A DNA stretch of 64,000 nt. It comes from Hormiphora californensis (lineage: Eukaryota > Animalia > Ctenophora). The first letter of the stretch is position 1. Every line of letters starts with the position of its first letter. The notes below the pieces were generated by a model. That model did no database searches and was not told the DNA's origin. It was given only the letters and a program-made list of their open reading frames with translations. The stretch covers positions 496,001-560,000 of the forward strand of contig CM035355.1 of the NCBI GenBank assembly GCA_020137815.1. Direction: 5' to 3'. The position numbers and the translations under genes are program-made. Shown one piece after another: positions 9,971-53,950 of this stretch.

Positions 9971-10105
9971 TAAAGTCGGATTTTTTGAAACTGTCACCCC
10001 CCTTTTCGTGCACATCACATGTTAACGTATGGTGTGCGCGTCAAAATTGATAAATTTCACATGTGCGGTCATTTGGGGGTGACAGTTTCAAAAAATCCGA
10101 CTTTA
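9971..10105. mobile_element. MITE-like inverted repeat
   Basis: taaagtcggattttttgaaactgtcacccc ... ggggtgacagtttcaaaaaatccgacttta, 30-bp perfect arms. Confidence 0.7.
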
Positions 10106-13117: not shown

Positions 13118-14380
13118 TATTATTATTATTATTATTATTAAATCTATATAATTTACACAATTTAATTGTATAAATAAGCCCCTTTTTTGTGGGCAAATAC
13201 GGGTTACCGATAGATATTAAAGTTCATTGAAGATACCCATTATGAAAAGTCTATCACCCCCCTCCGTACCCGGAATTGGCCTCCAGGATTCGAGTCCCTC
13301 AACTCCTTCAACGTTTGGTGGAGTTCTCTCCTCTCACTTCTCTCTGCGAAGGACATATCCCTTGCAAGATATACACCACAGTACGATTCTAACTGTTTTA
13401 GCTGCTTTGCCTTCTGGAGAAGGCTCAGCAGCATTTCCCTACTCTGTAGCTTCACAATCACTGGTCTCTCCCTTCCTCCCCGTTTCAAACCCACCCTTCT
13501 AGCTTCTATGGTCGGTTTCTCGCCTAGCTCAGCAAAAATATTTTCCACTTCCCCCTTTAACACAGATTCAGTTTCATCCTCACATTCCGGTAGACCAAAC
13601 ACCATCAGATTTTTCGATCTGTCTGGGCCGGTATCAACTGGCTTGTGCGTGACCTTTTCCACGGCTTTCTGGATCTTTTTCGATGCAAACGCAATCTTGC
13701 AATTCTGTGTGACGACTGCAGAGAAAGTACGCAAATCTTTCTGTACCGTCTCGGTAACTCGATTCAGTTGCTCGCCCTGAAGCTCAATAACCTGCTCTTG
13801 TAACTTGACAGTTCTTCTCAAAAGATCATCACACTCCACTTTCAACTTCTCCTCCTGCTCCTGCAACTCGAGAGATTTTCTCAACAGTTCATCTCGCTCC
13901 TCTTTGAGTTCATCTCGCTCCTCTTTGAGTACCATCTCAGGGGTTTTCTCGGCAAAGATATGACGCTCAAAGTGTTTTAGAACAATAAACGTTGCAAAGC
14001 TCATTTCTTCAATCAGTTGCTTTAGCTCATATTTCGTGTGTACAGAGTTGATTTTAACTGATGACGGTATTTCAGCATCGTTGAAATTTGGACTGCTCCT
14101 GCACTTTTTTAAGACATTGCCAGCGACAGAGCTCTCTCCACTTTTGGCCAGCGTCAGAATCCGTCTTACAGCAAAGTCCAATTCTCGTTGTTCGTCTGCC
14201 ATTATCTTACGTTCTGCCCTTTGGGGCCGTTACATCGCCATGTTGCTGAAACTCAAATTAATTTGTTTAAAGTAGTGTTGAAAAGTTTGAAACAAAAAAG
14301 TAAAAACCTGTTTTGGTTTTTTGTTTTGTTTTTACCGCCGTTTTCGCTGCTTTTTGGGCATTTAACGTGTGCTTAGCCTA
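13118..14380 (-). mobile_element. Non-autonomous ORF1-only retroelement with (TAA)n tail
   Basis: The ORF1 stop at 13240 is followed by about 100 nt of 3' UTR with the hairpin ATTTATACAAT-TAA-ATTGTGTAAAT, then a (TAA)n tail at 13118-13140. No endonuclease or RT follows. The 5' end is approximate. Confidence 0.65.
13240..14202 (-). CDS. LINE ORF1p-like protein (coiled coil + RRM + CTD), 320 aa, in an ORF1-only retroelement
   Basis: Intronless ORF with a coiled coil (KEERDEL repeats), RSKNLMVFGLPE, RRVG..RERPVIVKL and VYLARDMSFAERSERR, motifs typical of CR1/L2-group ORF1p. Confidence 0.8.
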   Translation of the reverse strand: MADEQRELDFAVRRILTLAKSGESSVAGNVLKKCRSSPNFNDAEIPSSVKINSVHTKYELKQLIEEMSFATFIVLKHFERHIFAEKTPEMVLKEERDELKEERDELLRKSLELQEQEEKLKVECDDLLRRTVKLQEQVIELQGEQLNRVTETVQKDLRTFSAVVTQNCKIAFASKKIQKAVEKVTHKPVDTGPDRSKNLMVFGLPECEDETESVLKGEVENIFAELGEKPTIEARRVGLKRGGRERPVIVKLQSREMLLSLLQKAKQLKQLESYCGVYLARDMSFAERSERRELHQTLKELRDSNPGGQFRVRRGVIDFS

Positions 14381-26900: not shown

Positions 26901-29900
26901 CACGATCCTAGATATTTGAAGTCCTCACTCAACTTTATCCTAGTGCCATCGACACTGTGGAGAGGACCAGGGTCTGGTATACCCTCAACCATGAACTCTG
27001 TCTTTGCCCGGTTTATCTCGAGACCCACCTCCTTACAAACACTCTCTACCTCCCGCATGATAACGCCCAGATCTTCCACTGAGTCTGCTAGGAGAGCTAC
27101 ATCATCAGCAAAGTCTGTGTCAGTAACCCTCTCCGCTCGTACTCTTCTACTCCGGGCTGGTTTCAGTGTGAATCCGATATCAGGGTGCCTCTCCAGTGCT
27201 GTCCGCATACAGTAATCGAGCACAATAATAAACAGGTAGGGCGCTAGAGTATCCCCTTGCAACACCCCGGCGACTATTTCAAATATATCCGTGAGGCCGT
27301 CTGGGGTGAGGACCTGAGCTCTTGTATTACTGTACATCCACTGGATGAGGTCGACGATCTTCCCTGGGATGCCATAAGCCCTGAGAACTTTGATCATGCG
27401 CTTCCGGTTAATGGAGTCGAAGGCCTTAACGAAATCCAAAAAGGCTACTGCCAGTGGTAGTTGTTTGGCAGTAGCTCCTTCGATGAGTCTCCTAAGCGTG
27501 AGGATGTGGCTGACTGTGGACCGTTCCTCTCTAAAACCGTTCTGGGAATCGAGTAACACAGTCTCGATGTAAGGCCGTATCCGGTGAAGTAGCATACGGT
27601 TCAGGGTTTTCGCAACTATAGAGGTAAGAGAGATGCCTCTATAGTTTCCGGGTTGAGAGAGGTCGCCCTTTTTCGGCACAGGGACAATATTACTCAGAGT
27701 CCACTGTTCCGGAATTCCCTTTCCGCACAAGGCATCGTTGCAAAAGGTCAGCACGAGGTCATCAATGTCGCATCGCTTCAAGATCTCGGGTGCGATGGCA
27801 TCATTTCCGTAGGCCTTATCCTCCTTTATCCGATCCTTCGCCTTTTTAAATTCCTCTTCAGTAAAGGGACCATCGTAGATATCTGCTCGGGGAAACACTT
27901 CCGGGATGTCTTGATCTACTTCATCCGGAGGTTCTGTCCCGAGGAGCAACTGGAAGTGGCTGAACCATTTGGCTTTCCGATCGTCTGGGGACGTTCCTTC
28001 AATTTGGATGGGGTGTTTGTCCTTCCTCCCAGAGATTTCGTTTACTAGCCTCCATGATTCCTTCGTCTTCGCGTTCCGAGTGGCTCTCTCTACACTCTTG
28101 ATTTTCCTATCGAGATGCTCTTCCTCGACGGCTAGGTACGCTTCAGTGAGTGCCTCTTTGCCTTCTTTCACAGTGGAACGTGTTTCTTCTGAAGGTGAGG
28201 TGTGGTACCTAGCAGTGGCAGATTCAAGATCCTCTCTTGCCCTCTTCACCCGGAAGTCCTCAGCTACAGTATCCTTAAGCCTCTTCCTCTTCTTTCCCAG
28301 TAGTTTCTTGCTAGTTTCTTCAACCGCCTGTATCAGGTCTCCATACTTTTCGGAGGCATCTGTACAGTCAGCAGAAGAAAGGGCAGCAAATCGATTCCTC
28401 ACTTCCACCGAGAATCTCTCCTGTAGATCAGGGTCCTTCTTCAGAGCACTTTAGTCCAGATTGGGGCGACCCGGGGCTAGTTTCCTCTTCCTGAGAGTGA
28501 CCTTAAGCCACCAGAAGTCGATGGTCCGACCCAATCGAGCTAAGTGCCTCGGACGTGTCCACATCCTTAATACTGTTTCTCCATTTCCGACGAACGAGAA
28601 TATAATCCAGTGTAGCCTTCCGTCCAGTACCATCCGAGAGAAAAGTCCAGAGTCTTCCCTTGTTCTTCCGGAACCTAACGTTGGCTAGGGGGGTACGTCA
28701 CCTTTTTTTTTGCCCACTGCCCACATTATTCTTAAATTTTGAATTTGCCCACATGGGCAAAAGTGGGCAAAAGTGGGCAAAAGTAGGCAAAAGTAGGCAA
28801 AAAATTTAAATCCATAAAAAATATATGCTATCAACCAGGTAATCGTCTGTGACAAAGATTTTTCACCACCAATGTCCTCCTAGAGGTCCCCCCTATCGAT
28901 TCCAACCGATAATTTATTTGCTCAGGGTTGATAAGGCTCCATATCCAACTGGGAAAATGGGCAAAATATGTTGGCAAAATTAGGAAAATTTGTCATTTTA
29001 GGCACGTTTCTCACATGGTTGGAGTGGAAAATTTTTCTGGTTTTTCTGGGACCCCATTGGAGTACAATGCAAGTGGAAAACCTTTGTTATGTATCAGTTC
29101 CCTAAATAGCCCCAAAATGACGAAAAATCACTGGCCTTTGCCTAATTTTGCCAAATTTTTTTGCCCACTTTTGTCCAGTCGGACATGGAGCCTTATCAAC
29201 CCTAAGTGATAAGTAAGTACATTAATTATCGGTTGGAATCGATAGAGGGGACCTCTTGGAAGACATTGGAGGTGAAAAACATTTGTCACAGAGGGTTTTC
29301 TGGTAAAGTTTTGATGCTTATAACATTTTTGCCCACTTTTTGCCCACTTTGCCCACATTATACCTGTTTTTTGAGATTTTGGTTTGCCCATGTGGGCAAA
29401 TGTGGGCAAAAGTGGGCAAAATAAAAGGTGACGACCCCCCCGTTGGCTACTTCCAATCTGGTCTCCTCAACTGTCTCCTGGAGCAGCTCTCCATTTCTAC
29501 TGGTATGTTGATGGAAATACCACCCGAAGCCAGAGTCCTCCCAGCCAATTCTGGCGTTGAAATCTCCGGCAACGACAAGGAGGTTATGAGCTGGAACAGT
29601 ATTGATGTAGTCCCTGAGATCGTGGTGAAATTTTTCAACTTCCTCTACATTCGCACATTCAGTGGGCGAGTAAACCGAGATGACTGTCAGTTTCGGATTA
29701 CCGGCCAAGGTAATGGCTAGAATTCTATGGGACACAGCTCGTATCTTGCAAATGAGCTTCGAGTACTCAGTTCTCATCAGAACTCCAACCCCTCCAACCG
29801 ATGCCCCTGCGCTGTTGCGCCAGGCTGTAGATGTGATAAGAGTTTCTCCTGGCCCAGCCTGAATCTGCCTGACTGTGTCTGCGTGGACAATGCGGTGTTC

Positions 29901-31655
29901 CTGCAAAGTGATTATGCCCAAGCCATTGTCAGCAAATTGGTAAACCAGCTCTTTTAACTTTTCCTTAACACGGAGCGTTCGACAGTTAAATGTTCCAATG
30001 CGTGTATTAAGTCGAGTCATAGCTATTCATATTGTTTTTCTTGGTTGCAGTATCCCAGGTGGGTCACCACTTCACCTGGCTGAGTCACTTTCAGTTCATC
30101 AAAACAGCATGTATGGCTGAGCTGGATAGACTGTTGGTGAGCAGTTATCTAAGCAGAGGTCTGGTCCACAAAGACAATATAATGTCAGTGTGGGGACTCC
30201 CTATGCTAATGCACTGTTTAGCCCACGCGGGCAATGGCCGCTTACGCAGCCTGCATGGTTACCACTCCTAGGTCATCGGGTGCCAAACCGACCGGGACCT
30301 AAGTGCATCCCCCTACTGGTGAGTCTTTTAAATAACAGAGACAGTAGAGAGAAGACAATCATCCCCCCTCCAAACCTGAAGACGTGAAACACAGTACTCT
30401 CGAAAGCTTCTGTCAGTGTAAATTTGTTGATTTATATATCGTTTATATATCTTATAAAACTAAATCCCCCCACCAGATGGAGGTGATACAACTACAGTTC
30501 ACCAGCTGGCCAGACCACGGTGTCCCAAAATCACCCAAGGACCTTCTAGGTACGGTGAATTTTCCCTTGCTCGGTGTAAAGTTTCCCTTGCTCGACCCTC
30601 TCTTACCGGAAAGCAGGGTTAGAGAGCACAAAAATCTTTCCCTCGACTATTATCTTCCTATTTAACCATCCTCCTTCCTCTCCCTAGATTACCTAGACGA
30701 GTTACAGAGTCTGGTTGAAACTAAAAAGTTGGAGCCACCTATTGAGAACGCAGTACCCTTGTTAATTCACTGTAGTGCGGGCGTGGGCCGGAGCGGAGTA
30801 CTGCTTCTTATGGACCTTCTTACCAACTCCTTCAGAAAAAATCAGGTACATGAATCATGATATTGATAACAGATCTCACGTTTTAGCCCCCACTGATTGA
30901 CCCCCAATTACTGAACCCAATGCAAATGACTGACCCCAATGAGTGACATACTGACTGACCCCTAGGAAGTGGATATTGTGGGTAGACTACGGGACATAAG
31001 ATTCTGCAGAGTTCATACCGTCCAAACAGTTGACCAATACTACTTTATTTACCGGGCACTACTTGAATTTATTGACAGAGGCGCTACCATCTGATGTGAG
31101 ACAGTTTATAATGTGACAGGACTGAGACAGACTTTACTTTTTTTAATTCAATACCATAAAGGGCGGCACAGACTGTCCATGTGTGATCATGTCCATTATT
31201 TTGACCAAGTCACCAGCGTATCAAAATAAGTCGGGTTCAGTGGTTCTCGATATGTTATGAATTAGTTTCAGTTTTTACTCTCCAAGCTTGGTCAAATGAC
31301 CAATTTTTTCAGTCTGTGCGACTTGGTCAAAATCTTGCCCATGCCCATAATGTGGGCAAGATTTTGACCAAGTCGCACAAACTGACAAAATTTGGTCATT
31401 TGACCAAGCTTGGAGAGTACATTTCCTAGTGCCTACCTCTCAAAAAAGACTATCCTCCCCGAACCGGGCCGGAATAGAATTACAGCTAGTATATACCCTG
31501 TTTCCTAACCCCATTCCTCATTACAGACAGTGGATATTCCTCGGACGTTAGCTGAGGTACGGAGGTGCCGATCACACACGGTACAGACTGAGGAACAATA
31601 CCAATTTGTATTCTCCTCCCTACTGGCATATGTTGACCAATCTCGACTTATCTAA
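14629..31655 (+). CDS. PTPN14/21: FERM-domain non-receptor protein tyrosine phosphatase, PTPN14/PTPN21/Pez type (19 coding exons, about 631 aa)
   Basis: Phase-consistent exons: 14629-14650, 14732-14841, 17451-17623, 17920-18017, 18832-18967, 19289-19376, 20230-20318, 20398-20482, 20906-20994, 21093-21135, 21249-21270, 25217-25299, 25475-25602, 25744-25834, 25920-26041, 26144-26300, 30477-30549, 30688-30845, then 30966-31094 or 31527-31655. FERM motifs: [22 protein letters not shown] motifs: [53 protein letters not shown]-terminal SRLI as in PTPN14/21. Confidence 0.9.
15822..15991. mobile_element. Tc1/mariner(pogo)-type MITE
   Basis: TIR CAGTCGGACCCCGATTTAACGGC with TA TSD; internal CCCCGATTTA repeats. 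Confidence 0.85.
16121..17310. mobile_element. 1190-bp foldback element built from AAAGCGCTTT-type units, 8-bp TSD
   Basis: TIR GGTAATATGGTAGTTCTGGGCTGAACATTTTCGACCGC...; arms of about 300 bp; AAATGGGG duplicated at 16113-16120 and 17311-17318. Confidence 0.9.
18533..18822 (+). repeat. 17-bp intronic minisatellite (CCTAACATGTCTCCCAC)n, about 16-17 copies
   Basis: Visible tandem units ending about 9 nt before the exon acceptor at 18831. Confidence 0.95.
26645..28408 (-). pseudogene. RTE reverse transcriptase region (587-aa ORF fragment)
   Basis: RT motifs listed for the RTE element, in the ORF track translation. Confidence 0.9.
28688..29440. mobile_element. Non-autonomous Mutator-like (MULE) DNA element nested in the RTE
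   Basis: 9-bp TSD CGTTGGCTA (28679-28687 and 29441-29449); termini GGGGGGT(A)CGTCACCTTTT; long imperfect TIRs with GTGGGCAAAA repeats. Confidence 0.85.
29441..30020 (-). pseudogene. RTE apurinic-like endonuclease N-terminal part
   Basis: [41 protein letters not shown]; continues at 28687 after the insertion. Confidence 0.9.
30966..31094 (+). CDS. PTP alternative terminal exon A ([42 protein letters not shown])
   Basis: CCTAG acceptor, phase 0, 129 nt, intact Q-loop, TGA stop. Confidence 0.8.
   Translation, partial: EVDIVGRLRDIRFCRVHTVQTVDQYYFIYRALLEFIDRGATI
31276..31419. mobile_element. Palindromic MITE between the two PTP terminal exons
   Basis: TACTCTCCAAGCTTGGTCAAATGACCAA ... TTGGTCATTTGACCAAGCTTGGAGAGTA; arms of about 65 bp, TA at both ends. 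Confidence 0.8.
31527..31655 (+). CDS. PTP alternative terminal exon B ([42 protein letters not shown])
   Basis: CTAAC branch-like motif and TTACAG acceptor, phase 0, 129 nt, intact Q-loop, conserved SRLI end. Confidence 0.85.
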   Translation, partial: TVDIPRTLAEVRRCRSHTVQTEEQYQFVFSSLLAYVDQSRLI

Positions 31656-35190: not shown

Positions 35191-38100
35191 TCACTCCTCC
35201 AAGAGCTCTAGCCTGTAAAGCCACTGACACGTGATTCTCAGAGTTCGGCGGATGAAGCAAAGAGAAGTGAGAGGAAGATGCAAGTATAGGAGAGAGAGAA
35301 TACTAGAAAGTAAGATATATGGGTGACGAAAGTAAAGGGAGAGAGAGAAGGAAGAAGTGTCTGAAGAATGGGGTGACCTGGTTATACATAATGGGTGTGG
35401 ATTGGGCAAATTGAAATGACGCAATATGTGTGGGAGTGTACCGGGTCTCACTCCCCACCCCCTAGGACATATATATGTAGCATGAAGATTGGAAGAGATT
35501 AGGAAGAAGTTAGGAAGAATTGGGAAGAAGAGTTAGGGGACAGCAGACAACCAAAATAGACATGGGACTAGAGGGAAGCTGATAGACACTGGGAAAAGGA
35601 GACAGAAAGCAGCCCTCCACCAGACGCTTATCACCAAAAAAGGGGAATTTAGAGACGGATAAATTTAGTAACTCACCCCTCCCTTTCATCTATCTCCATT
35701 GGATTCCTTTCAAAACATGCATGTGAGAAGGACAACTGCCAAAAATGTGGCTGAATTTTACCGCAACTTCGTTATCTATCTTCGTAACCATATTACCCAC
35801 ATTTTCTTAGAAAAATCCCATTACTTACACTCTTGTAACACCCGAACAACACCCCCTTGCAACACCCCCTTGCAACACCTCCCAATAACTCACCCAGTTA
35901 ACGGGCGATAAGGGCGTCTCCGGGTTGATCATCAGTCTCACAGCATGGCCATGAATACTGTATATTTCCATGCCATTACCACTCTCCAGGAAGCCACGAC
36001 ACAGTTCCACCAGATATGTAATGATACTCATCAGCATTCCAAAGCTGGGATTACCGGGCTCGTAGTTGTTTGAGTGGTGAATAAACTCTCTATACACCTG
36101 GAATATAGTTGACCATGTTAACCACAGCAATATTAGGGACACAACTGTCACACATGAAGATGCCATATCTAATCGTAACAGTTCAATTTCTTTAGTTTTT
36201 TATTAAGTTGTTGACACATACCCTTGCAATGTGGTGCTTGTATGACCGTGCATCTTGGACGACACCGTCCGTTAAGGATCGAATTCCTAGTTTAGTCTCT
36301 GAATGGGAAGGGGTTTTAGGACGAATCCAACCAATAATAATAGGGTTTAATAAGAGGAGGAATTTTAGATGATAATTTGTACCCAAATAAGTCAATCAAT
36401 TAATTAGTGCCCAAATTTATTAGTCAATCACTATCGTATTGTACCTTCAGGTAGATGCTGAAGTTCGTTAAATAAGTGAAAAGCACAATCTGGTGCCTCC
36501 GCCGCCATAGCCACTAACTTATCCGAGCCGCTAAAGTCTTCCCCTGAGGGTTCAAAAGGGATTAGTTAAAGTAGGAGATGTTATGAGAGAGAGGGATGTT
36601 GTTATTAGGGCGTTTGGAGGTTTGCCAATAACCCCTCAGACAGCTACCAATAGTATTGTTCAACAGTAGTATTGGTCCAATACTAATACTGCTGTGTTGG
36701 AACACCACATGACACAATAAACAGAGACAGAACACAGAGGCAGCACAGTAAGATAGTGAACACTGAACACACAAACAATAAACATCCAACTGCCGAACAA
36801 GCCTTGATATTTTAGAAATTACTCCAAATTGTGAGTTTGTTTTAACAACGAGTTAATTAATATTTTTAAAAGAAAGCATTTAGTCTCAGTTTCGTAGAAT
36901 TTGGGCGTGTTTAAACTTGTCACTGAGGGCGCGTTTCTAAAAAGTTTCCTGGAACTTGATCGGGCATGGCAGAGTTTTTTGTTTTGTTTAGTCTACACAC
37001 ACTCAGTACTAAAGGCAGTTGGAAGTTTCACTGCCATTTCACACACAATGACTATCTTGAGATCTTCACACCTGATATATTCACTGTCAAATCACACGGT
37101 GGGTTATTAAAGTGCGGGAAATACAGGACAAGGGAGAGATACTATACGATAAGATCGGTGTATACTGGAACACTAGAAAACACAAATTTACCACCAAGGA
37201 ATTGGGTTAAATCAAAACATATAATCCACTAAACCGAACGAAATAATACAGCTGTTTTTAGGACTAACCGATAGATTTGACGATCAGGTAGGCGATAATC
37301 CGTTCCGTTTCCTCCTTGTCATCAGTGAACCTCATCACAGGGGGCCCCACGGGGCTGGAGGCCGTCGTGGTCAACGTGGATGGAGGGGTGGGTCCCTTTC
37401 TGAGATCACGAGTCCACCTGGGAGAAGGGGAGGGGGTTAGAACTTAGAGGCACACTAACATGCGGAGAATGGGCAGGGGGTTAGGGTCACATTTTAGGGA
37501 GAGGGGGGCTAGAAATAGGTACATTGATGGGGAGAATGGGGAGGGGTTGGTTAGTTTTCACGGTGGAATTGTTAGTATAACGGGCTGTATGGTAATATTC
37601 AGCAGTGATGGTGGTTTGTGTGTGTGGGATTGTAACACCAGATGTTGAGAGTGAAATTAGAGAAGGACTAAGAATACACACCACCGCACCACGACCGGCA
37701 ATTATAATGGACAAGTGACAGAGAGAGAGATAGAGAAAAAGCTAGAATGATGGGATTAAGTTAATTTCTCGGAAAAAACTTTCCAGAGTTTTAGACAGAC
37801 AGCTGATAGACATATATTGTGGACATATTGTCTGAAGATTGTGTAACCTAATGTAAATGCCACATGAGAGCACTCATAAAGCTCTCTGTGTCTCTTTCTC
37901 TCCGTGTGTGTGTTATTAATGGCACACTGAGAAGAGTGACGCACAATATAAATTATACCCCTCACTCAATCTCTCTCACTATCTTTTTCTCTTTCTCTCA
38001 CTCTTTCTCTCACTCTTTCTCTCTCTCACTATCTTTTTCTCTTTCTCTCACTATCTCTCACTCTCTCTCTCTCACTATATTTTTCTCTTTCTCTCACTTT

Positions 38101-38634
38101 CTTTTTCCTCTTCTTCATAGGTTCATTAGTCTCTCAAAGGAGGAGCGGCCCGAGATGAGCGCTTATGTAATTCCGAGATATGTCACATGTAGCATATATT
38201 GTGGGCTTACAGCAGAGCTGGTCAGATGGGTGTGTGAGAGAGACCTAGGATTACATACCGTATTTGGTCAAATCGAACCTTATCAAAGAATAATATGCTT
38301 TTAGGATGGTAAGATCTCAGTCAGAGAGGCAGCGAACTAAAGTTTTACCAATAGAGAAAAAACTTAACGAAAAAATGCTACTGGAGAAATTGAGAAGACA
38401 GCCTACTCTTGATAATTGTCCTCTAAATTAGACCGCACGGGTCCTGAGAGAATATATAATGCGGAGTAGCGGCTAACTATGGGAAGAATTTATATCGTTT
38501 TATTAGAAAGAGTTGGCGAAATTCCAAGGTGGCAGCCCAGGTCCCCCTAGATGGGGATGTTGTTTTCATTACCTGCACCCTCCCACAACGCTTAGGAAGC
38601 GGTTGTACATGTTGTAATGGTTCTCCACCTCCAT
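35191..38634 (-). CDS. Unidentified 8-exon protein, about 256 aa
   Basis: Phase-consistent GT-AG exons 38634-38573, 37417-37269, 36543-36445, 36298-36222, 36097-35894, 35750-35677, 35461-35378 and 35212-35191 give MEVENHYN...DDKEETERIIAYLIVKSIGEDFSG...VYREFIHHS...PVNWPHFWQLSFSHACFER...LELLEE*. No family recognised. The first and last exons are less certain. Confidence 0.7.
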
Positions 38635-38856
38635 ATTTTACAATTACAATCTATAAGCTACAAGAAATGAGAATAATAATACGAGGATTGATAAAATACG
38701 AGGATTGAGGAAGACAGAGGGAGCGAGATGAATTATCTACAGAGGCAGAGGCTGAATAGTATCATTGAAATCACAAGACCCAGGGATTGGGATCTAGAGG
38801 CGAGGAGAGCAGAGATACCCTTCGAAACTTTGGGTAGACTGCTAGTGAAGGATTAA

Positions 38857-39306
38857 AGGTTGACAAGATACCTAAAACTTTTCGTATATCGTCTTATTTT
38901 GATTTATCATTAATTTTCAGCATTTTTTCAGAATTTTTTGTCGGCTAGAAATATGTGCAAAATAGGGGGTCTACTGAAAAATGAGTGTGCCTTTTTTAAA
39001 ATTGATAACGTAATATCTCCGGTTCCTGATGAGATACAGAAACCGTTTTGGTAGCGTTGGAAAGGTCTTATTGAGACCAATCCAACGCAACCAAGATCAA
39101 ATCTTTATCTTTTGAGGAACCGGAAACGTGAATTTCAATTTGCGAGACGCAGTGAGTGTGCCCAGTAAAACCAGTGCTGACAATATCGGTAGACCCCCTA
39201 TTTCGAATTTTTTTCTAGCCGACAAAAAATTCTGAAAAAATGCTGAAAATTAATGATAAATCAAAATAAGACGATATACGAAAAGTTTTAGGTATCTTGT
39301 CAACCT
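38857..39306. mobile_element. 450-bp MITE with TTAA TSD (Kolobok-like AGG termini)
   Basis: TTAA-AGGTTGACAAGATACCTAAAAC ... GTTTTAGGTATCTTGTCAACCT-TTAA; about 95-bp perfect arms. Confidence 0.85.
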
Positions 39307-39310
39307 TTAA

Positions 39311-42300
39311 TGGTGTTATTTTCATCAAAATATTTGATATTGCGATAAACAAAACACCGTCTGGAAAAACAACTTGAGAAAAAGGAGGGGTCTAGACATC
39401 ACGGGACATGTGTCAACACGAAGGCAAAGGGAAGGCAGGGAAATATATCAGCCGATGATTGTGTTTATTACAGAAGGGATCTTATTTCACTATATTTAAC
39501 GCTGTGATCACGCAGAGACACATTCCAATGCAGATATTTGACACGATCAGCAGATAAACGCCCGATCCTGCTTAATAATAAACCCATCAAATAAAGTTAA
39601 ACAGTACAGTTCGCCCAATAACAACTGGGTACTGATCGGTGTGTTTAAATGTAGAGGCACTAGCCGCATTATATAGTGTACAGATCATAATCACCCAGCC
39701 AGTACTGTCTAGAAACTATGATCACCATCAAATTGTCTTGAGTAGCGCCTCTTTGAGATCAAATAGCTATTAATTTTAGTAGATTGTATACTTATCTCAG
39801 ATAAAGCCAAAAAAGGTCTGAGTAGAAAGAAGCGAGTGCCTGATTTAGCACTGCAATGCGACTGCTGCATACGTAAATCAAATGCGTCAAGAAAACACAA
39901 CAGTGTGCGAGATAAGATGGGGCTAAAGTCATTCCGACAGATAAACGAGAGGATCACATCCGTTGAACCCCAGTGATCTATCATTCTGGTTCTGCAAGGA
40001 GAGGAAACCCTTAGCAGAATAGCAGCTGTTATATGGACAGGGAATTACAACACACAGCGAGCGAAAAGCTCTGGATGTCTCTCAGCAACCACTCAGATGC
40101 ACTATCTCTCTCACTATTTCTCACTATTCCATAACAACCCAGGTGCTCCAGGGCTCAAATTTCTCTGGAGAGATGAAGAAAATGAAGACTGATGAGAAAT
40201 AGAGGGAAGGAGAGAGTGAGAATAAGGGAAGATAGAAAGGAAGAGATAGAACGTTTGAAGCACGTGACTGAAAACAACCAATGAAAATCATTGGCACCAC
40301 TGAACTCAATCACCAGATTCAGTGCAGTGGAAAACTAGACAAAGGATCATTGGGAGGATTGAACATTTTCACGAAATGATTTGACTTTTGATTCTGAAGA
40401 GTTGGTTCAAACAGTAGTCAGTACCAATCTTCTTGAACTGAACCGTTCGTCCTGTTTTTTAGCAAATCAGGATTGCAGTACGAACAGTTCAATTTATACG
40501 GTGTCTGTAGAATTCACCTGCAAATGATACGGCTTGGTCGGTATTCGAGGGCCTTGGACAGGGACACGGAAAACATGACTCAAAGTAAGAGAAATGATAA
40601 AGCGACGGATGGGATTGACGTCACCATCACATGGCACCCCCTCCACACCCCCACAACGATGGGGGTTGGATTACCCAGATAAAATTCCAAGAGAATGAGC
40701 TCAAAATCATGCAACACAAGAACAAAGCCCCGGCCCTGATAACAGAAGGCTGGTGTAAATTCCTCAGTCGTCTGATCCTCTTAATTTGACATCGGAAACC
40801 AATTTAAGGATCATAGCCACACACTGATCAAGTTTTGTACTACAACATACTATGGAATGTATTACCCGGAATTCTCTGACTCCAACACACACCTCTTATG
40901 TAGCTCTAAGTAGCTTGTAGGGGAGGTGACAACAACAACGAGAGGAATGCAATACCTGGATTCCTTTCAACAACAACTTTCTCAGCAAGACTCCTACCGC
41001 CAGCTAGCATGAGCTTTCTGTAAAGAGATGCAGAGTCTCGGAGGTAACTACTATAATACGCTTACCTGGAAAAACGCCAGATTTCAACCGAACTAACACT
41101 ATTCCGAGAAGCTTAAATCTAGATCAAAGAACCACTGGTACAAAACCAATTTGGACATGCCAGGGCATGCCAGGGCCTACGAAATCTGATCTGCATCTAG
41201 GGACTCGCAAATCTATAAAGGAATATCTATAACCGAATGAAATTACGTTAAGGTGGGACACTGGGAGCAAGGACCTGGGTTATAAAAACAGAATGTCAGG
41301 TGATCTCACCTCCTTGGCATTCCTGAACATCAAGAGAATGTCCAAACAAAGATCCGTCCTGTATCACGTTATATATATAGCGAGCTTTCTCCCACAGAAG
41401 ACAAATTATCGGATAATTACTGAAGCTTGCTAGTGAAAGCCTAGTGCGTGAGAAAAAAATAGCACACACCTCCGAAGTCGGATCCGAGTGTTTTGGAGAC
41501 AGTTCAAGTTTGTAGTGTGTCTGGGATCTTCTTCCTGAGAGGAGGGCCCAGAAGCGGGATCAGGAGTGCCAACCATAGCTCTGATGATCAATATAAAGAG
41601 ATTTCTCAGTGAAGCAAAGTAATTCGAGCAGAGTTACTGGAATGACAGAAATGCAGGAAACGATGATAGAACTGAGTTCTGAGTACAACAAAAGCTTTCC
41701 TACTCCGGGAAATAGTTTAAATAGTTTTGTCACTGCTTTGAGTAGGAGAAACTTCAAAGAAGCACACTTCAAGGATCCGAGGACTTCTTTGGATGTTCAT
41801 TTGGCCCGAAACAACCTGGATCTTAGATCATTGAATCACGAGGGTTACCATTGGGTTCATTGTTTAACCGCTCCGTATCCCATGAGGAGCTGTTTTAAAA
41901 CCAGTACACACACCATGAGAGAGGGAGAGAGAGAGAGATAGGGAGATAGAAAGAGAGAGAAAGATAGATAAAATGAGTGCTCTCAGCAAGGATGACTATA
42001 TTACGAAGAGCTGTTAAAATTGGACGCATGTTAAACCTTCAATTGCTTGATTGAGAGTGGCACCAGAGAGATGGGATTGTTCTCATACAGCTACACAGCT
42101 GTAGCAGCTCAGGATCGATACACGTCTGACAATTATATGATGAGACCTACTGTACCACTGTTATCCGAAGGTCACAGCGAGGGGGCTGACTCCAGAAGGT
42201 ATTATGCAAATAACAACTGATCGATTATATGATGTGAACCAATGAGATGATCAGAACCACAAATTGCAATGATCATATTGTAATATTGCATCTTATTATA

Positions 42301-43563
42301 TTGCTTTCCTAGCTCAGAAAATATCATAGAAATGCTATAAACCAGTACATACTTGTGTCCAGTAAAACGAAGACCCACGCGACGCTTGACGAAAGAGCTC
42401 AAGAGATAGTTATAATTAACGAACACACCGCCGACTGACTCTGTGTGAGTAGCGCTGTAAATCTAAATTAAGAATGCATTTCCGGGATACAGAAGGTCGA
42501 TACAAACAACTCCACCCTTCTATAACATTTTGCCAAAAACTAATGAAGATTCTTTTATATCGGTACCAGGACATAGAGATCATGACATAAAACCAGCCAA
42601 CTTCATGAGTGCGCAAAATGATAATTATTAGCTCGGTATCTCTGGAACTATCCCAGCGCTTACATCATCTAATTAATGAGAAATGATAGTCAGATATAAT
42701 TATATAACTACCGTCTCTCCGAAGCGGTACTCTTTTTACACTGTTACATAGATTCATGAGTTCACCAGTTTTCCGAAATAAGAATAAGGACATGGCATTT
42801 ATTTATGGTTCGGAAAATCAACCAAATTCAGTTTGCCAGCTGCTTTGTTCAAAGATTTCAGTAAATCGTAATTTTTCCAAGAATTGGAAATAAAGATCTG
42901 GAGACTGGTATTCCTTATGCCGGACTTCGGAGAGCAGTGTCAGTAGTAGTGGGTGTGTATGTTAAACATATAGTGCCAATGACGTCAAAGAATATCAATA
43001 CGGAAACCCCTCCGAGATAGAGAGAGAAATAGAGGGAGAGAGAGAGAGAGAGAGAGAGTGAGAGAGAGAGTGAGAGAGAGTAAGAGAGAGAGAGAGAGAG
43101 AGGAGAATATACTAGGTTGAAAGGTTTCTTGACGCTGGAAGTTCAAAAGTGTTGAAATCACTCCTGAACTGTCTGCAACTCCTCCAGGAAGAATGCTCTG
43201 AGTTCGAGATCTGACTTTTGAGTAACATCCAGATCAGGGGGATCAAGAGACCCGGTAGGCATACCCCTTTCTGATGATCAGGAGGATCAAGAAAACATTA
43301 GGAAACATTGCTCTTATGAAGACAGATCTGGCAAATAATACCTTAATTAATCCTTGCTGGATCGAAAGAGGTAATGAATGTAGTCACATTGTAGTGGCAA
43401 GGCCAAGAGATTGATATAAAATAAGGCAAACAATATTCAAGTTCACTTCACGAATATTCCACTGATACCGGAATTCAGTGATAAAATACTAAAAATCCAT
43501 TGGTCTAGATAGGTTTATCTATAAAAAGAAACAGGAGAATGGGAGATAGTGGGCAATATATAG
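39311..43563 (+). pseudogene. Decayed endogenous Mononegavirales-like L (RdRp/capping/MTase) gene
   Basis: Degenerate motifs in L-protein order across shifting frames: ISADDCVYY..ADK (39445), IKPKK..TAMRLL (39801), QMRQENT (39879), EKLWM (40063), ENNQ (40270), LYG..RYSR (40494), TPTTMG (40647), DPLNL (40774), HEL..FNRTNTI (41008), WTC..HAR..LRN (41152), GSK (41263), SANH (41565), LLSEGH (42158), KETGEWEIVG (43525). Confidence 0.6.
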
Positions 43564-44810
43564 CAGAAACTTGAGAAGGAGAAATAAAACTAATATATTG
43601 ACCCAAACTTGGGTCTGAGTAGGTTGAGCCGGGTTGTCAGTGTGTTAATGCACACAATAACAGTCCGAGCTGGTACCGCCAGATGGTCAAATATTGTGGT
43701 CTAGACAAATGATTCGTTTAGTGTGTGCCTTCAATTCTTCCTTACATCATCTGTAGTGTTCAGCTGATATTATACCCGATATAATATTGTAGCACACTGA
43801 TAAAACTACTGATATTAGAACATGATGCAGTTCGGGTTACATAACGGACGAAAGTATTTACTTTTGACTTCCCACCCCCTTTAGTATATATGCTTTATTG
43901 GTGAACCCTACAAAGTGACATAACAATTTTTAAACTCTAGGCTTCCCTTCCAGACCAGGAAAGCTATGTTTTACATTTCCCAACATTATATTTATTCTCC
44001 AGTTCACTTTCCTAGAAAGGGCCCGCACCTGGCTCTCATGAGTCACCTAACTATTCCTAGAATTGTAATGATCCTTCTAGAATAACATTTCCTTAACTAT
44101 TTTAGGAGCCCGTCTCTCATCTAAGTGGGCCTAACTAAAACGGCATATATTCCGCATAATGTAGCCATACCTCATTTTCAGGAATAGCGACCACTTTCAT
44201 GTGATTCGCAGAACAAGCACATCAATCAGAGAAAGAAGCAAGTACAGAGCCTGTAATCTCAAGGGATCTATATCCGGCGATATATAATAGTGAGGGTGGG
44301 GCCCTAATACGCCTCTGTAATGACCTAGGGAGGGGCAATATATATCTAGTGCCTAGTAATAGAGGTGGGTGTTACTAGTCAGTAATTGCATTCGGTCAAC
44401 TATGGGTATACCAAGGCAGCAGTTCAATGTTGGAGAGAGGGAGATTATAAGGGAGAAGAGAGTGAGAGAATGATATCGTAACTTGTTGGCGAAAACGAGG
44501 GCAAACAATTACCATTGTCAATATTGTCAAACGAGGCGGCACAGTGCCCGACCGTAATTTATAACTTATTGTAAACTCATCTTTTGGCACTATCTACTAA
44601 ACTAACTACATAATTTCCCTCTCTTCCAATTGAGCCCCCCCCCTTTCCCTTTCTTCCAATTTTCTGTTTCGCCTCAGACTGAGCTGAGCCTCTCAGTACA
44701 CTTTGAATCTCGTGTCATCACACCAGGGGTAAGAAAGCGTGAAAGATGTGGTACAGTGTACACAACTATCCTGAATATCCAATATTATGAAATTGCATTT
44801 TGAAAACTTA

Positions 44811-45298
44811 CTGAATGAAATGAGAGAAGAACTCAGGGTCATAGTTATAATTAGTAGGTAGGGAGCGTGGTCTGTCAGAAGCCGAGGAATCATGTCGATC
44901 CCTTCGATAAGCCAAAGCTGTAACTGGTGCTGTTCTAGGACCTGTTATACTGTTGGTAAACTCAGAGAGAGGGTCTGTCCGTTCGTTTGTCTGTCCGTCT
45001 GTCTCGTCATTGTCATCAGTTGTTTCAGAGCTAGTGCTGACTAATCTCACCCTCCATGTGGAATATCGGGGGCGACGGACGCGATGGTCCCTGGTATGTC
45101 GTCCACCATGGCTTGCTACTGGTGCTTTTCTTGTCTGTCTTGTACTGCCCTTTCTTGTCTGTTTTGGACTTGCCCTTTCTTTTCTGTTTTGGACTGTGAT
45201 CCTGAGTCTTTATAACTCTTTGTTTGTCGTTTCTTGTCAGTTTTCCGGTCTCCTCTGTCACTACTACTTGGTCTATCTCTGGTCTGTCTACTGCTCAT
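44811..45298 (-). pseudogene. Low-complexity K/S/T/D-rich exon with two frameshifts, product unknown
   Basis: Acceptor near 45314, ATG at 45298, SKT(E/D)KKGQ repeats, donor GTAAGT at 44810. Three consecutive ORF pieces need two frame changes to join. Confidence 0.35.
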
Positions 45299-45380
45299 AG
45301 TGAAAATAAATACCTGAGAGGATAGGGAATCAGCAAATATTGTCAGCAAATGAAAGGGATAGAGAGAGAGGGAGAGATAA

Positions 45381-45629: not shown

Positions 45630-46825
45630 TATACCCCTACCCGACATGTTTTTTTTGCCTTATTTTACCGGGAAAAGAAGATAAAGCACAATTTAGGTGC
45701 CGGCAGGCACCTCCGACCCGAAGAAAACAGCAAAAAACGAAAAAAAGAAAAAAATTTTTTTGCCCCTGCACAAAAACCCAAAAATGCCGGCCCTATTAAG
45801 AACAAAGAAAGGTCTTTTTTGGGGGGGGGGGGGGGGGGGGGGGGCAAAAAACATGTCAACGATTGTGGCCACACCGTTTGAGATATCGACTTGAAATTTT
45901 GTACGCATGTTCTTGTAGTATTCCTTTGTGTCATGACGTTGGCGGATTTTTGAATTTTTAATTAATTAATTAATTATAGGTAATTAAAAACGGTGCAAGG
46001 GCACCGTGCCCCTGCACATTGCGTGTTATGTCCCTTGCACCGCGCCCTTGCACCAAATTCTATTTTCCGTTCTGCTTAAAATATCGACTCGAAACTTTGT
46101 AGGAATGTTCTTCATGCATAAAACATATAATATAATCTACAGAAAGTGGGAATAGTCAAAATTAATTAATTAATTACTTAGAGATTAATTTTGGGGTGGC
46201 CCCTGCACAATTTTGGCAAATTTGATATTCAAACTTTGAGCCTTTGTGAAAGTAATGAAAATTATTTATTTCAGGTTATGATGAACAATAAGCTATAAAA
46301 ATGCCCCTTTTTGTTACACAAGCCTGTGCTTGGTATCGAAGACACCTCAAGTGACACACTCTGTCGCCGGGCGACCTTCGCGTGCACACGCTGGCAAGGG
46401 GTAACTTCGTAACCAAAGCCTGTGCATTGTGCATATAATAATGAAATGGATAAATTTTCATCCAGTTGCTGGCGATAGAACTCGATAGAGTTCGATTGAT
46501 TTACCATGACAACGGAGTTGGTTACCATACTAACCAGAGAATTCGTTGTAAAATAGTCCTTTCTTGCTATAAACTCGGCCTTTAGATAGAAAATTGATTT
46601 TATTCTACTCGCACTAATGCAAGGGCATTTCACAGTTTGGTGCCGTTATTTTTGTCTCTATTTTTAATAGGATTTTGGGATTAGACTGAAAGTATGGGAT
46701 CATTTGAGAAGTAGTGAAGATTTGAAAATGTTAGCAACTTGCCGGTTCGACAAACTAAACCCATATGATTTCAACTTCGGGTCGGACGAGGGGAAGCTTG
46801 CCTTTTGCGAACATATTACTTGAGT
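45630..46825 (+). mobile_element. Helentron-associated (HINE/DINE-1-like) non-autonomous element
   Basis: Starts TT-ATACCCCTACCCGAC. An inverted partner GTCGGACGAGGGG lies near 46782, about 30 nt before a CTTG..TT end. Internal GATATCGACTTGAAATTTTGT and AATATCGACTCGAAACTTTGT cores. Confidence 0.45.
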
Positions 46826-49785: not shown

Positions 49786-49940
49786 TCTCTCACTCCCTAG
49801 GTGTGGCTATACTGTGCATGAGAGCAGTATAATACATGTGTGCTTTGCAGCGGCTAGTTTTAGATGTTATACAAGTGCTGCACCACTCAAATAGAGAATA
49901 CAAGAAGGGAGAACAGGAGTTATTGTGCTACCAAGGGAAC

Positions 49941-51522
49941 CACTTCACTTCACTTCTCACTTCTTCACTTCACTTCTCACTTCTCACATATCACTTTCAC
50001 TTCTCACATATCACTTATCAGTTTCGTCACTTCTCACATATCACTTATCAGTTTCGTCACTTCTCACATATCACTTATCAGTTTCGTTTAAACACTTCTC
50101 ACATATCACTTATCAGTTTCGTTTAAAAAGCTCGCTCCTGATAGTTTTTGATCTTGCACCGTTGTACACGCGAACGAGCATGGCCTCCAAGTTGGATCGT
50201 GCCTTCACTATCTGGCGGAATGGCGGCCCGGGCAACAGAGCTACTACTGCTGATTACAGCCGGCTGGAGATGTCCATCGTATCTACCTTGAGACGAGTCG
50301 GCGGGTACCCTGACCCTAACAAGGAAGGTGCCACGTTTGACCCGAACAAGCTGACCACCACCTATCTCTCTACTCTAGATACCAACAAGAAAGTTAGTTT
50401 TATTTCTGATATGGCGGGCTTGCTTTGGTATCGTGCTCTCCCTCTCAGTCGGTTAGCTAAGAAGAACTTGTCAGATGACATGCGATCGGTTCAGAACAGT
50501 TCTGTGTGTAGCGATGAATCAAAAGAGAAGGTAGAGAAGCTCATGGAGCATCTTGACCACACCCGTGACCGTCTTGACAGTGCTACAGATTTGTTATTAG
50601 AACGTGATTCTAAGATCATTGAACTGCAATCAGAGATCAGTGCCCTGAAAGACTCGATCATATCCATGAAAGATACCATGCTAGAGAAGAGCGTGACCGC
50701 TGTACAGACAGTTGTAAAGGACGAGATTCAGAACTACTCGGCTGTTCTCCAGACAGCTGCTACTGCTGTGAACCAGACCTGCGTATCTGCCCTTGCTCCC
50801 AGCAAACTACGAACAGCGATTGCCAGCGCTTCAGTTGATCGTAGTAACAACCTGATGGTGTATGGTCTGCCAGAGAGTGGTCAGCAAAGTGACAGTACTT
50901 TAGTCAAGGATCTATTTGAACATTTGTCTGAAGCACCAGTGTTATCAGAGGTGGCACGACTTGGTAAGAGAGGTGGTGAGGGAGTGCGGCCAGTACGGGT
51001 GGTGCTGAGGAACAGAGAGATTGCTAGGAATATTTTGGGGAAATCAGCGACGCTGAAGAACTCTGACCAGTATCAGTCAGTGTTTGTTGCACCGGACAGA
51101 TCAGTAGAAGAGAGAGCAGAGAGAAAAGAATTAGTTAGTAAACTGAGAGAGAGAAGAGAAAATGAACCTGATAAAGTGTGGAGGATTAGAAAAGGCTATA
51201 TTGTAGAGAGTGAGACGTGAGAAGTGTTACGAGAGATTAGAGAAATAGAGTTTAATGAGTTTGAGATACGGATTTATGTTATATAATTTTTTCATGGTTT
51301 TCAGTTTTGTAAAGACATAGTGGGGACCAGGGTGGGGTAACAGGTTCAAAGCACACATAAGACCTAACCGTCTTCGTGCTGACGACCCTGTTACGCCACC
51401 CTGAATCCTCACTCAGTTTGGTCTGTGTGGCTGGTTTGCTTCCTATTATATATGATTATTTCGGCGCAATGCCACTGCCAGCGGCAGTTTTGATTGATTT
51501 GATTGATTGATTGATTGATTGA
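49941..51522 (+). mobile_element. Second ORF1-only retroelement with (GATT)n tail
   Basis: 5' UTR of CACTT and 30-bp CACTTCTCACATATCACTTATCAGTTTCGT repeats; ORF1; about 270-nt 3' UTR ending in the hairpin ACTGCC-AGC-GGCAGT and (GATT)n at 51490-51522. No ORF2. Confidence 0.7.
50180..51220 (+). CDS. LINE ORF1p-like protein (coiled coil + RRM + CTD), 346 aa from the first ATG
   Basis: RSNNLMVYGLPE, ARLGKR..VRPVRVVL, VFVAPDRSVEERAERKELV..WRIRKG; homologous to 13240-14202. Confidence 0.8.
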   Translation: MASKLDRAFTIWRNGGPGNRATTADYSRLEMSIVSTLRRVGGYPDPNKEGATFDPNKLTTTYLSTLDTNKKVSFISDMAGLLWYRALPLSRLAKKNLSDDMRSVQNSSVCSDESKEKVEKLMEHLDHTRDRLDSATDLLLERDSKIIELQSEISALKDSIISMKDTMLEKSVTAVQTVVKDEIQNYSAVLQTAATAVNQTCVSALAPSKLRTAIASASVDRSNNLMVYGLPESGQQSDSTLVKDLFEHLSEAPVLSEVARLGKRGGEGVRPVRVVLRNREIARNILGKSATLKNSDQYQSVFVAPDRSVEERAERKELVSKLRERRENEPDKVWRIRKGYIVESET

Positions 51523-52430: not shown

Positions 52431-53428
52431 TAGTAAGGGACCGGAACCCCATTTTATGCCCTGATTAGGAAATTTTTTTAGACCAGCTAATTCCTTCACC
52501 AATGTGTTCCCAAGGGTCTCCCTTAACACCACAGAAAACCCTAAAATCCAGTGAGCGGTGGAACACCCTCATTTCCGGGTGGGCGTGGTACCTGTATTTT
52601 CAGCCTGAGGCCAAAAACCTAAGTACCCTTAAAATGGGAGTAGAGATAAAATCGAGGGCACTAAAGTGATCAGCGCCCTCGCATTAGTGGGGGTAGGTAC
52701 CGGAATTAAGTCTCTATCTCATCTGGTTAATTAAATAATTGGATAATTAGGTATGCGCATAAACGTTTTTTGGCTATATGGCTATAGCCATTTAGGAATG
52801 GTTTAGAGACTTTTCACTGGTGTCATTTTGTTCAGAAGAAAATTCTAGAGAGAAGTTGTAGAAAAATTTAGGGCCTATCTCTTACCGTTTTGCCGTTATT
52901 TACGGTAAAAGAATGCCAAATTAGTCGAAAAAGCCAAAAATCGAGTTAATTGGCATTCGTTTACCGCAAATAACGGCAAAATGGTAAGAGATAGGCCCTA
53001 AATTTTTCCACAACTTCTCTCTAGAATTTTCTTTTGAACAAAATGACACCAGTGAAAAGTCTCTAAACCATTCCTAAATGGCTATAGCCATATAGCCAAA
53101 AAACGGTTATGCGCATACCTAATTATCCAATTATCTAATTAACCAGATGAGATAGAGACTTAATTCCGGCACCTACCCCCACTAATGCGAGGGCGCTGAT
53201 CACTTTAGTGCCCTCGATTTTATCTCTACTCCCATTTTAAGGGTACTTAGGTTTTTGGCCTCAGGCTGAAAATACAGGTACCACGCCCACCCGGAAATGA
53301 GGGTGTTCCACCGCTCACCGGATTTTAGGGTTTTCTGTGGTGTTAAGGGAGACCCTTGGGAACACATTGGTGAAGGAATTAGCTGGTCTAAAAAAATTTC
53401 CTAATCATAGGGCTCCGGTCCCTAACTA
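52431..53428. mobile_element. About 1-kb near-perfect palindrome (foldback element)
   Basis: Arms of about 490 bp with few mismatches and a loop of about 25 nt near 52922-52947. TSD unclear. Confidence 0.85.
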
Positions 53429-53681: not shown

Positions 53682-53950
53682 TGAGTAAACACACACACGC
53701 ATTGAGCAAGCTCAATGTTTAGCTATTCTCCGGCTGGGTATAGGGCTGAGGTACTGGCAAGATATAGTAGGATCGCTACTGCCCACATATATATACCTGT
53801 GACCCCCCAACCTTTTAAACTTGTATATCCGAATAAACTTGACATGTGGGCAGTAGCGATCCTACTATATCTTGCCAGTACCTCAGCCCTATACCCAGCC
53901 GGAGAATAGCTAAACATTGAGCTTGCTCAATGCGTGTGTGTGTTTACTCA
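53682..53950. repeat. 269-bp hairpin with 107-bp perfect arms
   Basis: TGAGTAAACACACACACGC...GCCCACAT and its reverse complement; explains the mirror ORFs 53715+ and 53723-. Confidence 0.9.

What the first reader, a model, noticed from the sequence alone, without database searches (positions are those of the whole stretch)
39311..43563. Hidden fossil of a negative-strand RNA virus L polymerase
Seen: no long ORF, but about 14 short translated motifs fall in the order expected for a Mononegavirales L protein: pre-A, A, B (KLW), C (ENNQ for GDNQ), YG..SR, LGG-like, DPxxL, WTC..LR, GSx and H of the capping domain, an EG-type methyltransferase motif, and C-terminal KETGEWEIVG resembling paramyxoviral KETKEWYKLVG. 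Known: non-retroviral RNA viruses integrate through LINE RT, and LINEs are abundant here. Inference: an old, deletion-ridden EVE covering most of L, possibly of an undescribed lineage in an early-branching animal. Each motif is weak alone; the evidence is their collinearity. It may extend left of the TTAA MITE.
Basis: partly seen in the sequence, partly recalled or inferred. Interest (0 to 1): 0.8.

Follow-up and report, generated by a model that had tools for sequence, protein, structure and literature searches.

The report
Faint rhabdovirus-like polymerase fossil, comb jelly
A single-copy, non-coding stretch inside a predicted 7.4-kb intron of a comb jelly gene is likely the very old, dead remnant of a rhabdovirus-like RNA virus polymerase gene, but the signal is at the edge of detection and may still be chance.

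Summary
The quoted motifs are in the sequence, but standard searches find nothing (Pfam, PDB, tblastn, two large protein collections). Frameshift-aware profile models built from 150 natural L proteins give a weak, repeatable signal in a different register: start near 38375, motif A 40316, motif B 40544, capping region 41560-42290. With the VSV-like and all-rhabdovirus-type profiles only 0-2 of 100 shuffles and 0-1 of 65 genomic controls score as high. The all-rhabdovirus-type profile's best of 765 window-wide starts falls here, beside a weak gene-junction-like signal. Against this, the best likelihood ratio is +4.8 bits, reversed-profile decoys peak as high elsewhere, the C-terminal third shows nothing, and many models were tried. 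The host is a ctenophore. The stretch is single-copy, shared with a related species (about 94% alike) and lies antisense in a predicted 7394-nt intron. Verdict: probable (about 0.6) ancient rhabdovirus-like L endogenous viral element, a known kind, not proven.

The parts
38375..42400 (+). Candidate decayed L (polymerase and capping domains) of a rhabdovirus-like virus; broken by many stops and frameshifts and interrupted by the MITE
   Evidence: Frameshift-aware profile tests; suggestive only (p about 0.01-0.05 each, correlated)
42400..44500 (+). Where the connector, methyltransferase and C-terminal domains would lie if the gene was complete; no statistical support
   Evidence: 192 of 252 and 61 of 252 other starts score as high in this third; end extrapolated from profile length
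38356..38377 (+). Gene-junction-like signal (G, A-run, short spacer, start-like triplet) followed by an ATG at 38375
   Evidence: G-to-ATG distance 19 nt against a mode of 20 in 41 VSV-like references; but a weight matrix ranks it only 16th-100th in the window, by setting
37772..37781 (+). Second copy of the same 10-nt junction-like word, 584 nt upstream; meaning unknown
   Evidence: 2 matches in the window against 0.69 expected; 14 of 100 shuffles reach 2; word chosen after the fact
38390..38430 (+). Match to the short N-terminal L motif
   Evidence: Posterior mass 0.64 with the VSV-like profile, 0.15 with the wider rhabdovirus-type profile; block score only 4.8 bits, reached at 893 + strand positions
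38853..39309 (.). High-copy MITE with TTAA target site, a recent host insertion
   Evidence: 126-nt inverted arms; depth 118,408 against about 60 beside it and empty site in runs X1 and X4
39639..39707 (+). Match to the conserved region-I motif of L
   Evidence: Posterior 0.68 with the paramyxo/filo/pneumo profile; same place with the VSV-like profile
40316..40348 (+). Polymerase motif A-like
   Evidence: Posterior 0.63; 10.9-bit block
40544..40561 (+). Polymerase motif B-like; the best-supported spot
   Evidence: Posterior 0.77 and 0.59; strongest agreement among four disjoint clade profiles; 228 nt after motif A, 219 expected
40600..40890 (+). Region where motifs C and D should lie; motif C not cleanly placed
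   Evidence: Posterior mass 0.22-0.37 for motif C; segments at 40762-40779 and 40854-40890
41015..41085 (+). Match to the conserved glycine-pair and downstream proline motifs after the catalytic core
   Evidence: Posterior 0.59-0.71 (VSV-like) and 0.62 (paramyxo/filo/pneumo) at compatible places
41561..42292 (+). Capping (PRNTase) domain-like region, with a GA microsatellite at 41912-41976 inside
   Evidence: Segments at 41561-41647, 41805-41852, 42119-42148, 42210-42233, 42272-42292, posterior 0.45-0.58; the histidine-arginine motif place varies between 42091 and 42148 by profile
37418..44811 (-). Predicted 7394-nt intron of a multi-copy host gene that holds the candidate antisense
   Evidence: Canonical donor, branch point, pyrimidine tract and acceptor; flanking frames join in frame; not shown by RNA
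44812..45209 (-). Upstream exon frame of the host gene (no Pfam family above cut-off)
   Evidence: raised depth (1199 in X1) suggests paralogs
37268..37417 (-). Downstream exon of the host gene
   Evidence: depth 984 in X1; a contig of run X14 (RNA is a guess) matches 37268-37317 and 36220-36257 at about 85%

Best explanation
The stretch 38356-42400 is likely an ancient, non-functional endogenous copy of the L polymerase gene of a rhabdovirus-like negative-strand RNA virus, lying antisense in a predicted intron of a ctenophore gene. Shown: it is single-copy, non-coding, present in two samples of one species and in a related species, and carries a recent MITE and microsatellites. Inferred: viral RNA was reverse-transcribed by a host retroelement enzyme and inserted in the germ line before the two species split. 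If the junction signal is real, the template was genome, antigenome or read-through RNA, since a plain L mRNA would not carry the upstream gene-end signal. The antisense intronic position would have let the host gene keep splicing. The copy then decayed neutrally; it must have lost roughly 0.2 or more substitutions per site with frequent indels, or it would be easy to detect. It does nothing as a protein gene today.
For: Junction-anchored forward scores: VSV-like profile 2/100 dinucleotide shuffles, 1/100 block shuffles, 1/65 genomic stretches reach the real score; all rhabdovirus-type profile 1/100, 0/100, 0/65; non-rhabdovirus profile 14/30, 13/30, 12/65. The excess holds over a 36-setting grid (z 1.2-5.9 against shuffles, 1.2-3.1 against real DNA). 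Unanchored scan of 765 starts: top peak at 38216-38666 (+) for the all-rhabdovirus-type profile, second peak for the VSV-like one; core-only scan ranks 2 and 6 of 406. Disjoint clade profiles agree on placement more than in controls (1/60, 3/60, 1/65). Single proteins show a gradient: VSV-like +0.92, other rhabdovirus-type +0.08, rest -0.68 bits; 15 of 59 VSV-like exceed 2 bits against 0 of 59 reversed. The N-terminal part and the core each show some excess. Junction-like word with ATG at the peak. Flat single-copy depth, and no match elsewhere in the window except the MITE to itself. Power estimate explains why standard searches are blank. Rhabdoviruses are reported from ctenophore transcriptomes (bioRxiv 10.64898/2026.08.30.748148, passages).
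Against: No conventional search hits: Pfam, PDB, tblastn, 5.8 billion proteins (22, 32), 1.84 billion representatives (52). No local frameshift-aware excess with any profile. The best likelihood ratio is only +4.8 bits and is negative at many settings. Reversed-profile decoys reach +5.3 elsewhere in the window. The block-chain test is marginal with broad profiles (1-24 of 100) and null with the VSV-like one (7-85 of 100). In one search the mean single-protein excess (0.29) did not beat reversed proteins (0.40). No signal in the C-terminal third. No outstanding peak for upstream rhabdovirus genes. The junction ranks only 16th-100th by weight matrix. Motif C is not cleanly placed. About ten profiles and several models were tried, the anchor and the rhabdovirus grouping were chosen after looking, and the tests are correlated. 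Two incompatible registers could be read by eye, and my own by-eye placement at 41100-41600 differed from the posterior.
Confidence: 0.6

Rival explanations
1. The stretch is ordinary old intronic DNA (unrecognisable transposon debris and microsatellites), and both motif registers are chance patterns.
For: All standard and local searches are blank. Likelihood ratios stay near zero and decoy peaks are as high. The A-rich skew fits an intron of a minus-strand gene in this genome. Stop codons are below shuffle level on both strands alike. Many analyses were tried.
Against: The best window-wide L start falls in the interval flagged beforehand, on the flagged strand, at a junction-like word. The excess is clade-specific and disjoint profiles agree on placement. 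The reversed profile scores poorly at this same place (rank 566 and 584 of 765), so composition alone does not explain it.
Confidence: 0.32
2. It is an L fossil in the first reader's register, from a paramyxo- or filovirus-like lineage, heavily deleted and reaching the C-terminus at 43563.
For: The quoted strings are present in order. The paramyxo/filo/pneumo profile shows a mild excess when anchored at the junction (3/30, 1/30, 2/65), and the filovirus-type profile peaks at starts 37916-38066.
Against: That profile's confident segments lie in my register. Its local and block-chain scores equal shuffles. The C-terminal third has no excess with rhabdovirus-type profiles and no confident segment beyond 42292 with any of four profiles.
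Confidence: 0.04
3. It is an L fossil in my register but from another lineage (Jingchuvirales, Lispiviridae or an unsampled family), with rhabdovirus profiles only the nearest proxy.
For: No single reference stands out (best excess 4.3 bits). The mixed profile scores above the VSV-like one. Chuviruses and a basal lispi-like virus are reported from ctenophores. This shades into the best explanation.
Against: The profile of non-rhabdovirus references shows no excess.
Confidence: 0.04

Closest known systems
Rhabdovirus-derived non-retroviral endogenous viral elements of arthropods
   Same: Dead, genome-integrated L fragments. Rhabdoviridae and Chuviridae are the commonest sources in insects (PMC12282059, passages; PMC2987831, search listing and abstract start only).
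   Different: Those are found by plain BLAST with clear protein identity. This one is below BLAST and HMMER thresholds, would span 4 kb or more from the gene start, and lies in a ctenophore.
L proteins of VSV-like rhabdoviruses (Alpharhabdovirinae; label recalled, grouping made from motif A text in the fetched loci) and other rhabdovirus-type L
   Same: Best-fitting profiles; order and spacing of the N-terminal motif, region I, motifs A and B and the capping region; junction-to-ATG distance.
   Different: No significant pairwise match to any of 144 references scored; motif C unclear; methyltransferase and C-terminal domains undetected; not coding.
Rhabdo-like and lispi-like viruses from ctenophore transcriptomes (bioRxiv 10.64898/2026.08.30.748148; passages seen)
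   Same: Same host phylum and virus order; the paper reports divergent rhabdoviruses (23-42% to known ones) and viruses in embryo libraries, a route to the germ line.
   Different: They are exogenous viruses. The word 'endogenous' does not occur in the main text. Their sequences and supplements were not available to me, so no comparison was made.
Endogenous bornavirus-like and filovirus-like L elements of vertebrates (recalled; PMC11398700 seen as search listing only)
   Same: Old, orthologous across species, thought to be inserted by LINE reverse transcriptase.
   Different: Different virus families and hosts; no target-site duplication or poly(A) tail seen here.

Membership tests
Mononegavirales L-derived endogenous viral element | Significant protein similarity to L (Pfam Mononeg_RNA_pol, tblastn, phmmer) | tested here: not met
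   blank. A reference L hit Pfam at E 2e-93. The tests lack power at this decay.
Mononegavirales L-derived endogenous viral element | Collinear frameshift-aware alignment above shuffled and genomic controls | tested here: inconclusive
   Glocal models p about 0.01-0.05; local models null; likelihood ratio at most +4.8 bits.
Mononegavirales L-derived endogenous viral element | Polymerase motifs A, B, C, D in order and at conserved spacing | tested here: inconclusive
   A at 40316 and B at 40544 with posterior 0.6-0.8 and near-expected spacing; C and D diffuse.
Mononegavirales L-derived endogenous viral element | Methyltransferase and C-terminal domains | tested here: not met
   No excess in the last third; no confident segment beyond 42292.
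Mononegavirales L-derived endogenous viral element | Integrated in host DNA and inherited (host flanks, several individuals, related species) | tested here: met
   DNA contigs of organisms A and B and of a marine metagenome cover it; one X1 contig runs from 38706 to 40998 across the empty MITE site; host genes flank it.
Mononegavirales L-derived endogenous viral element | Empty pre-insertion site in an outgroup or paralog | not testable with these tools
   No whole genome held; no listed joint skips the intron (tables cut).
Rhabdoviridae | Phylogenetic placement of L inside the family | not testable with these tools
   No alignment reliable enough for a tree; only profile preference.
Rhabdoviridae | Gene-end/gene-start junction before L | tested here: inconclusive
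   Junction-like word and ATG at near-modal distance, but rank 16-100 in the window.
Rhabdoviridae | Upstream genes in N-P-M-G order | tested here: not met
   Three upstream-gene profiles show no outstanding + strand peak before L; N was not modelled; low power.
LINE-retroposed insertion | Target-site duplication and poly(A) tail | not tested
   None seen by reading 44300-44810; no formal search; would not survive this age.

The most novel reading that the evidence does not exclude
A near-complete (up to about 6.3 kb) L gene of an unsampled rhabdovirus-like lineage, copied with its upstream gene junction from genome-length or read-through RNA, makes up most of a 7.4-kb intron and was fixed before two ctenophore species split. 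It would be a germ-line record that Mononegavirales truly infected comb jellies long ago, and a sign that ctenophore introns hide viral fossils below BLAST range.
Probability: 0.4. Interest if true: 0.6.

Novelty: new member of a known kind. Interest (0 to 1): 0.36.

Why it matters
Transcriptome surveys find rhabdoviruses in ctenophores but cannot be sure of the host. An inherited fossil shared by two species would prove germ-line infection and give a minimum age in what may be the earliest-branching animal phylum. My paper searches (listings only, open-access library) showed no report of a negative-strand RNA virus EVE in a ctenophore; that is not proof of absence. The element itself is a dead fossil of a common class with no sign of function, and it is unproven, which limits interest.

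Tried and rejected
No whole genome was held, so no paralog search. Pfam, PDB and tblastn blank. The search of 5.8 billion proteins was run on one + frame for longer proteins (not the frame I intended) and on another for near lengths: 0 of 913 and 0 of 613 candidates scored. phmmer of 41131-41832 against 1.84 billion representatives: 0 hits. hmmsearch on 2544 six-frame pieces with nine profiles: nothing in register. Local Viterbi and forward models: null. Segment-wise pairwise tests: mean z -0.55 to 0.01. Block chains: marginal or null. Anchored broad profile: weak. A-rich skew rejected as evidence because introns of minus-strand genes give it too. Stop-codon depletion rejected because it is on both strands. 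Rfam none; phage DNA none; bacterial promoter scan irrelevant. Expression: no RNA holder listed; run X14 (RNA is a guess) does not cover the stretch; neither says anything about expression. Organism C run X13 laid 1 record, no evidence either way. Protein atlas gave no result. Earlier-findings look-ups by place and by sequence were empty. My own by-eye register for 41100-41600 was dropped in favour of the posterior placement.
Full report
SETTING. The window comes from a ctenophore. Its myotubularin frame (54666-55787) has its best named match in Bolinopsis microptera (60%, 484 bits); the next named animal scores 294 bits. Other content: a kinase, a tyrosine phosphatase gene with a LINE (RT, E 5e-34; endonuclease) in an intron, and two BTB genes. 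No whole genome was held.

THE LOCUS. 39311-43563 has no long frame. Depth in run X1 is flat at 34-71 from 39670 to 43706, against 118,408 at the MITE and about 1000 in the bins 37101-37467 and 44808-45174, so the stretch is single-copy between multi-copy pieces. Those pieces look like exons of a minus-strand gene: a canonical donor at 44811 and a branch point, pyrimidine tract and acceptor at 37418 join the two frames in frame, giving a predicted 7394-nt intron. A contig of a possibly-RNA run matches two downstream exons at about 85%. The MITE (38853-39309) is missing in runs X1 and X4, so it is recent. Organism B holds the locus with 59 other letters and 53 gap letters over 40503-41543, and its listed indels are mostly not multiples of three, as in neutral DNA.

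CHECKING THE OBSERVATION. To test them I fetched natural L genes by motif scans: 204 long L proteins, 150 after removing near-duplicates; one was checked as Pfam Mononeg_RNA_pol. Pfam, PDB, tblastn and two very large protein collections found nothing. Local frameshift-aware alignments with single proteins or profiles did not beat shuffles. An analytic power estimate shows what that means. A copy with 0.1 substitutions per site would score +44 to +456 bits; at 0.2 the true path scores -503 to +36, and lower beyond. So a young fossil is excluded and an old one is not.

A DIFFERENT REGISTER. A block-chain test with the broad profile was slightly high (1 of 60 shuffles, 0 of 22 other stretches) but unstable over 12 settings (1-24 of 100) and null with the VSV-like profile. 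The G-to-ATG distance is 19 nt; the mode in 41 VSV-like references is 20. A weight matrix from those references ranks the site only 16th-100th in the window, so it is weak evidence.

GLOCAL TESTS. I used a forward model with nucleotide-level indels and neutral codon decay, with the MITE and, in later runs, two microsatellites left out of scoring. Anchored at the junction, the controls reaching the real score were: VSV-like profile 2/100 dinucleotide shuffles, 1/100 block shuffles, 1/65 genomic stretches; all rhabdovirus-type 1/100, 0/100, 0/65; other rhabdovirus-type alone 0/30, 6/30, 1/65; non-rhabdovirus 14/30, 13/30, 12/65; paramyxo/filo/pneumo 3/30, 1/30, 2/65. Across 36 settings z was 1.2-5.9 against 12 shuffles and 1.2-3.1 against 18 real stretches, with a best likelihood ratio of +4.8 bits. 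Without the anchor, over 765 starts on both strands, the top peak of the all-rhabdovirus-type profile is 38216-38666 on +, and the VSV-like profile has its second peak there. Reversed profiles rank 566 and 584 at that place but reach +5.3 elsewhere. The core alone ranks 2 and 6 of 406. By thirds, the N-terminal part and core show excess and the C-terminal third does not. Four profiles built from disjoint clades agree on placement more than in controls (83.4 against about 40; 1/60, 3/60, 1/65), and their confident segments give the coordinates listed under parts. Single proteins show a gradient towards VSV-like L, though an earlier unanchored version showed no mean excess over reversed proteins. 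Profiles for upstream genes gave no outstanding peak.

WEIGHING. Each positive test gives p about 0.01-0.05, but they share the same few matches. About ten profiles and several models were tried, and the anchor and grouping were chosen after looking. Two incompatible registers could be read by eye, and my own by-eye reading of 41100-41600 differed from the posterior. In favour: the best window-wide start falls in the interval and on the strand flagged beforehand, the excess is clade-specific, and composition is excluded by the reversed profile at the same place. These odds are judgement, not computed.

HOW IT WOULD WORK. Shown: inherited, single-copy, non-coding DNA shared by two species. Inferred from general knowledge of non-retroviral EVEs (recalled; passages of PMC12282059): viral RNA was copied by a retroelement reverse transcriptase into the germ line. 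The presence of a LINE in the window shows that the enzyme class exists in this genome, not that it acted here. An upstream gene-end signal would imply a genome-length or read-through template. Antisense placement in an intron would spare the host gene. The copy has since decayed and gained a MITE and microsatellites. Nothing suggests function; expression could not be assessed.

COMPARISON AND NOVELTY. It would be a new member of a known kind, the rhabdovirus-type L EVE. Strict membership is not shown: significant protein similarity was tested and not met. Rhabdo-, lispi- and chuviruses are reported from ctenophore transcriptomes (bioRxiv 10.64898/2026.08.30.748148; passages only; supplements not available, and they may hold the decisive sequences). 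bioRxiv 10.1101/2023.11.03.565523 (passages) notes low virome diversity in Ctenophora and cannot separate EVEs from viruses. Six literature searches showed no ctenophore negative-strand EVE (listings only). Earlier scan notes report clearer nucleoprotein fossils in other animals, unchecked here.

Noticed in passing
window 35825-45300 (-): Spliced, multi-copy gene of unknown family around the candidate (exons near 44812-45300, 37268-37417, 36220-36257, 35825-36098). The first exon looks frame-broken in this copy; no Pfam family above cut-off.
   Followed up: partly
window 38853-39309: Presence/absence-polymorphic MITE with TTAA target site and AG...CT ends; Kolobok-like by recall, not tested.
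   Followed up: partly
window 1-7000: Homopolymer-error-ridden sequence that repeats the kinase region at about 7000-10000; likely a long-read assembly artefact (seen in the translations printed).
   Followed up: no
window 52462-53407: Near-perfect palindrome, arms 467 nt, 97%, 12-nt spacer; a smaller one at 53682-53950.
   Followed up: no
window 16121-17310: Foldback element with 132-nt perfect inverted ends and internal 10-12-nt palindromic tandem repeats.
   Followed up: no
window 26645-30026 (-): LINE with RT and endonuclease frames inside an intron of a + strand tyrosine phosphatase gene.
   Followed up: no
window 57186-62013 (+): Two tandem single-frame BTB genes of 738 and 764 codons, 76-93% alike in blocks.
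   Followed up: no
window 49895-51220 (+) and 13240-14229 (-): Open frames of 441 and 329 codons with no Pfam family above cut-off; possibly retroelement ORF1-like coiled-coil proteins (guess).
   Followed up: partly
window 54666-55790 (-): Myotubularin phosphatase with a C-terminal FYVE finger; 98% to an unnamed EukProt protein, 60% to Bolinopsis.
   Followed up: partly
window 10814-11381: Near-perfect hexamer array of 95 copies.
   Followed up: no
window 45690-46800: Cluster of high-copy nested repeats with many presence/absence joints between runs.
   Followed up: no
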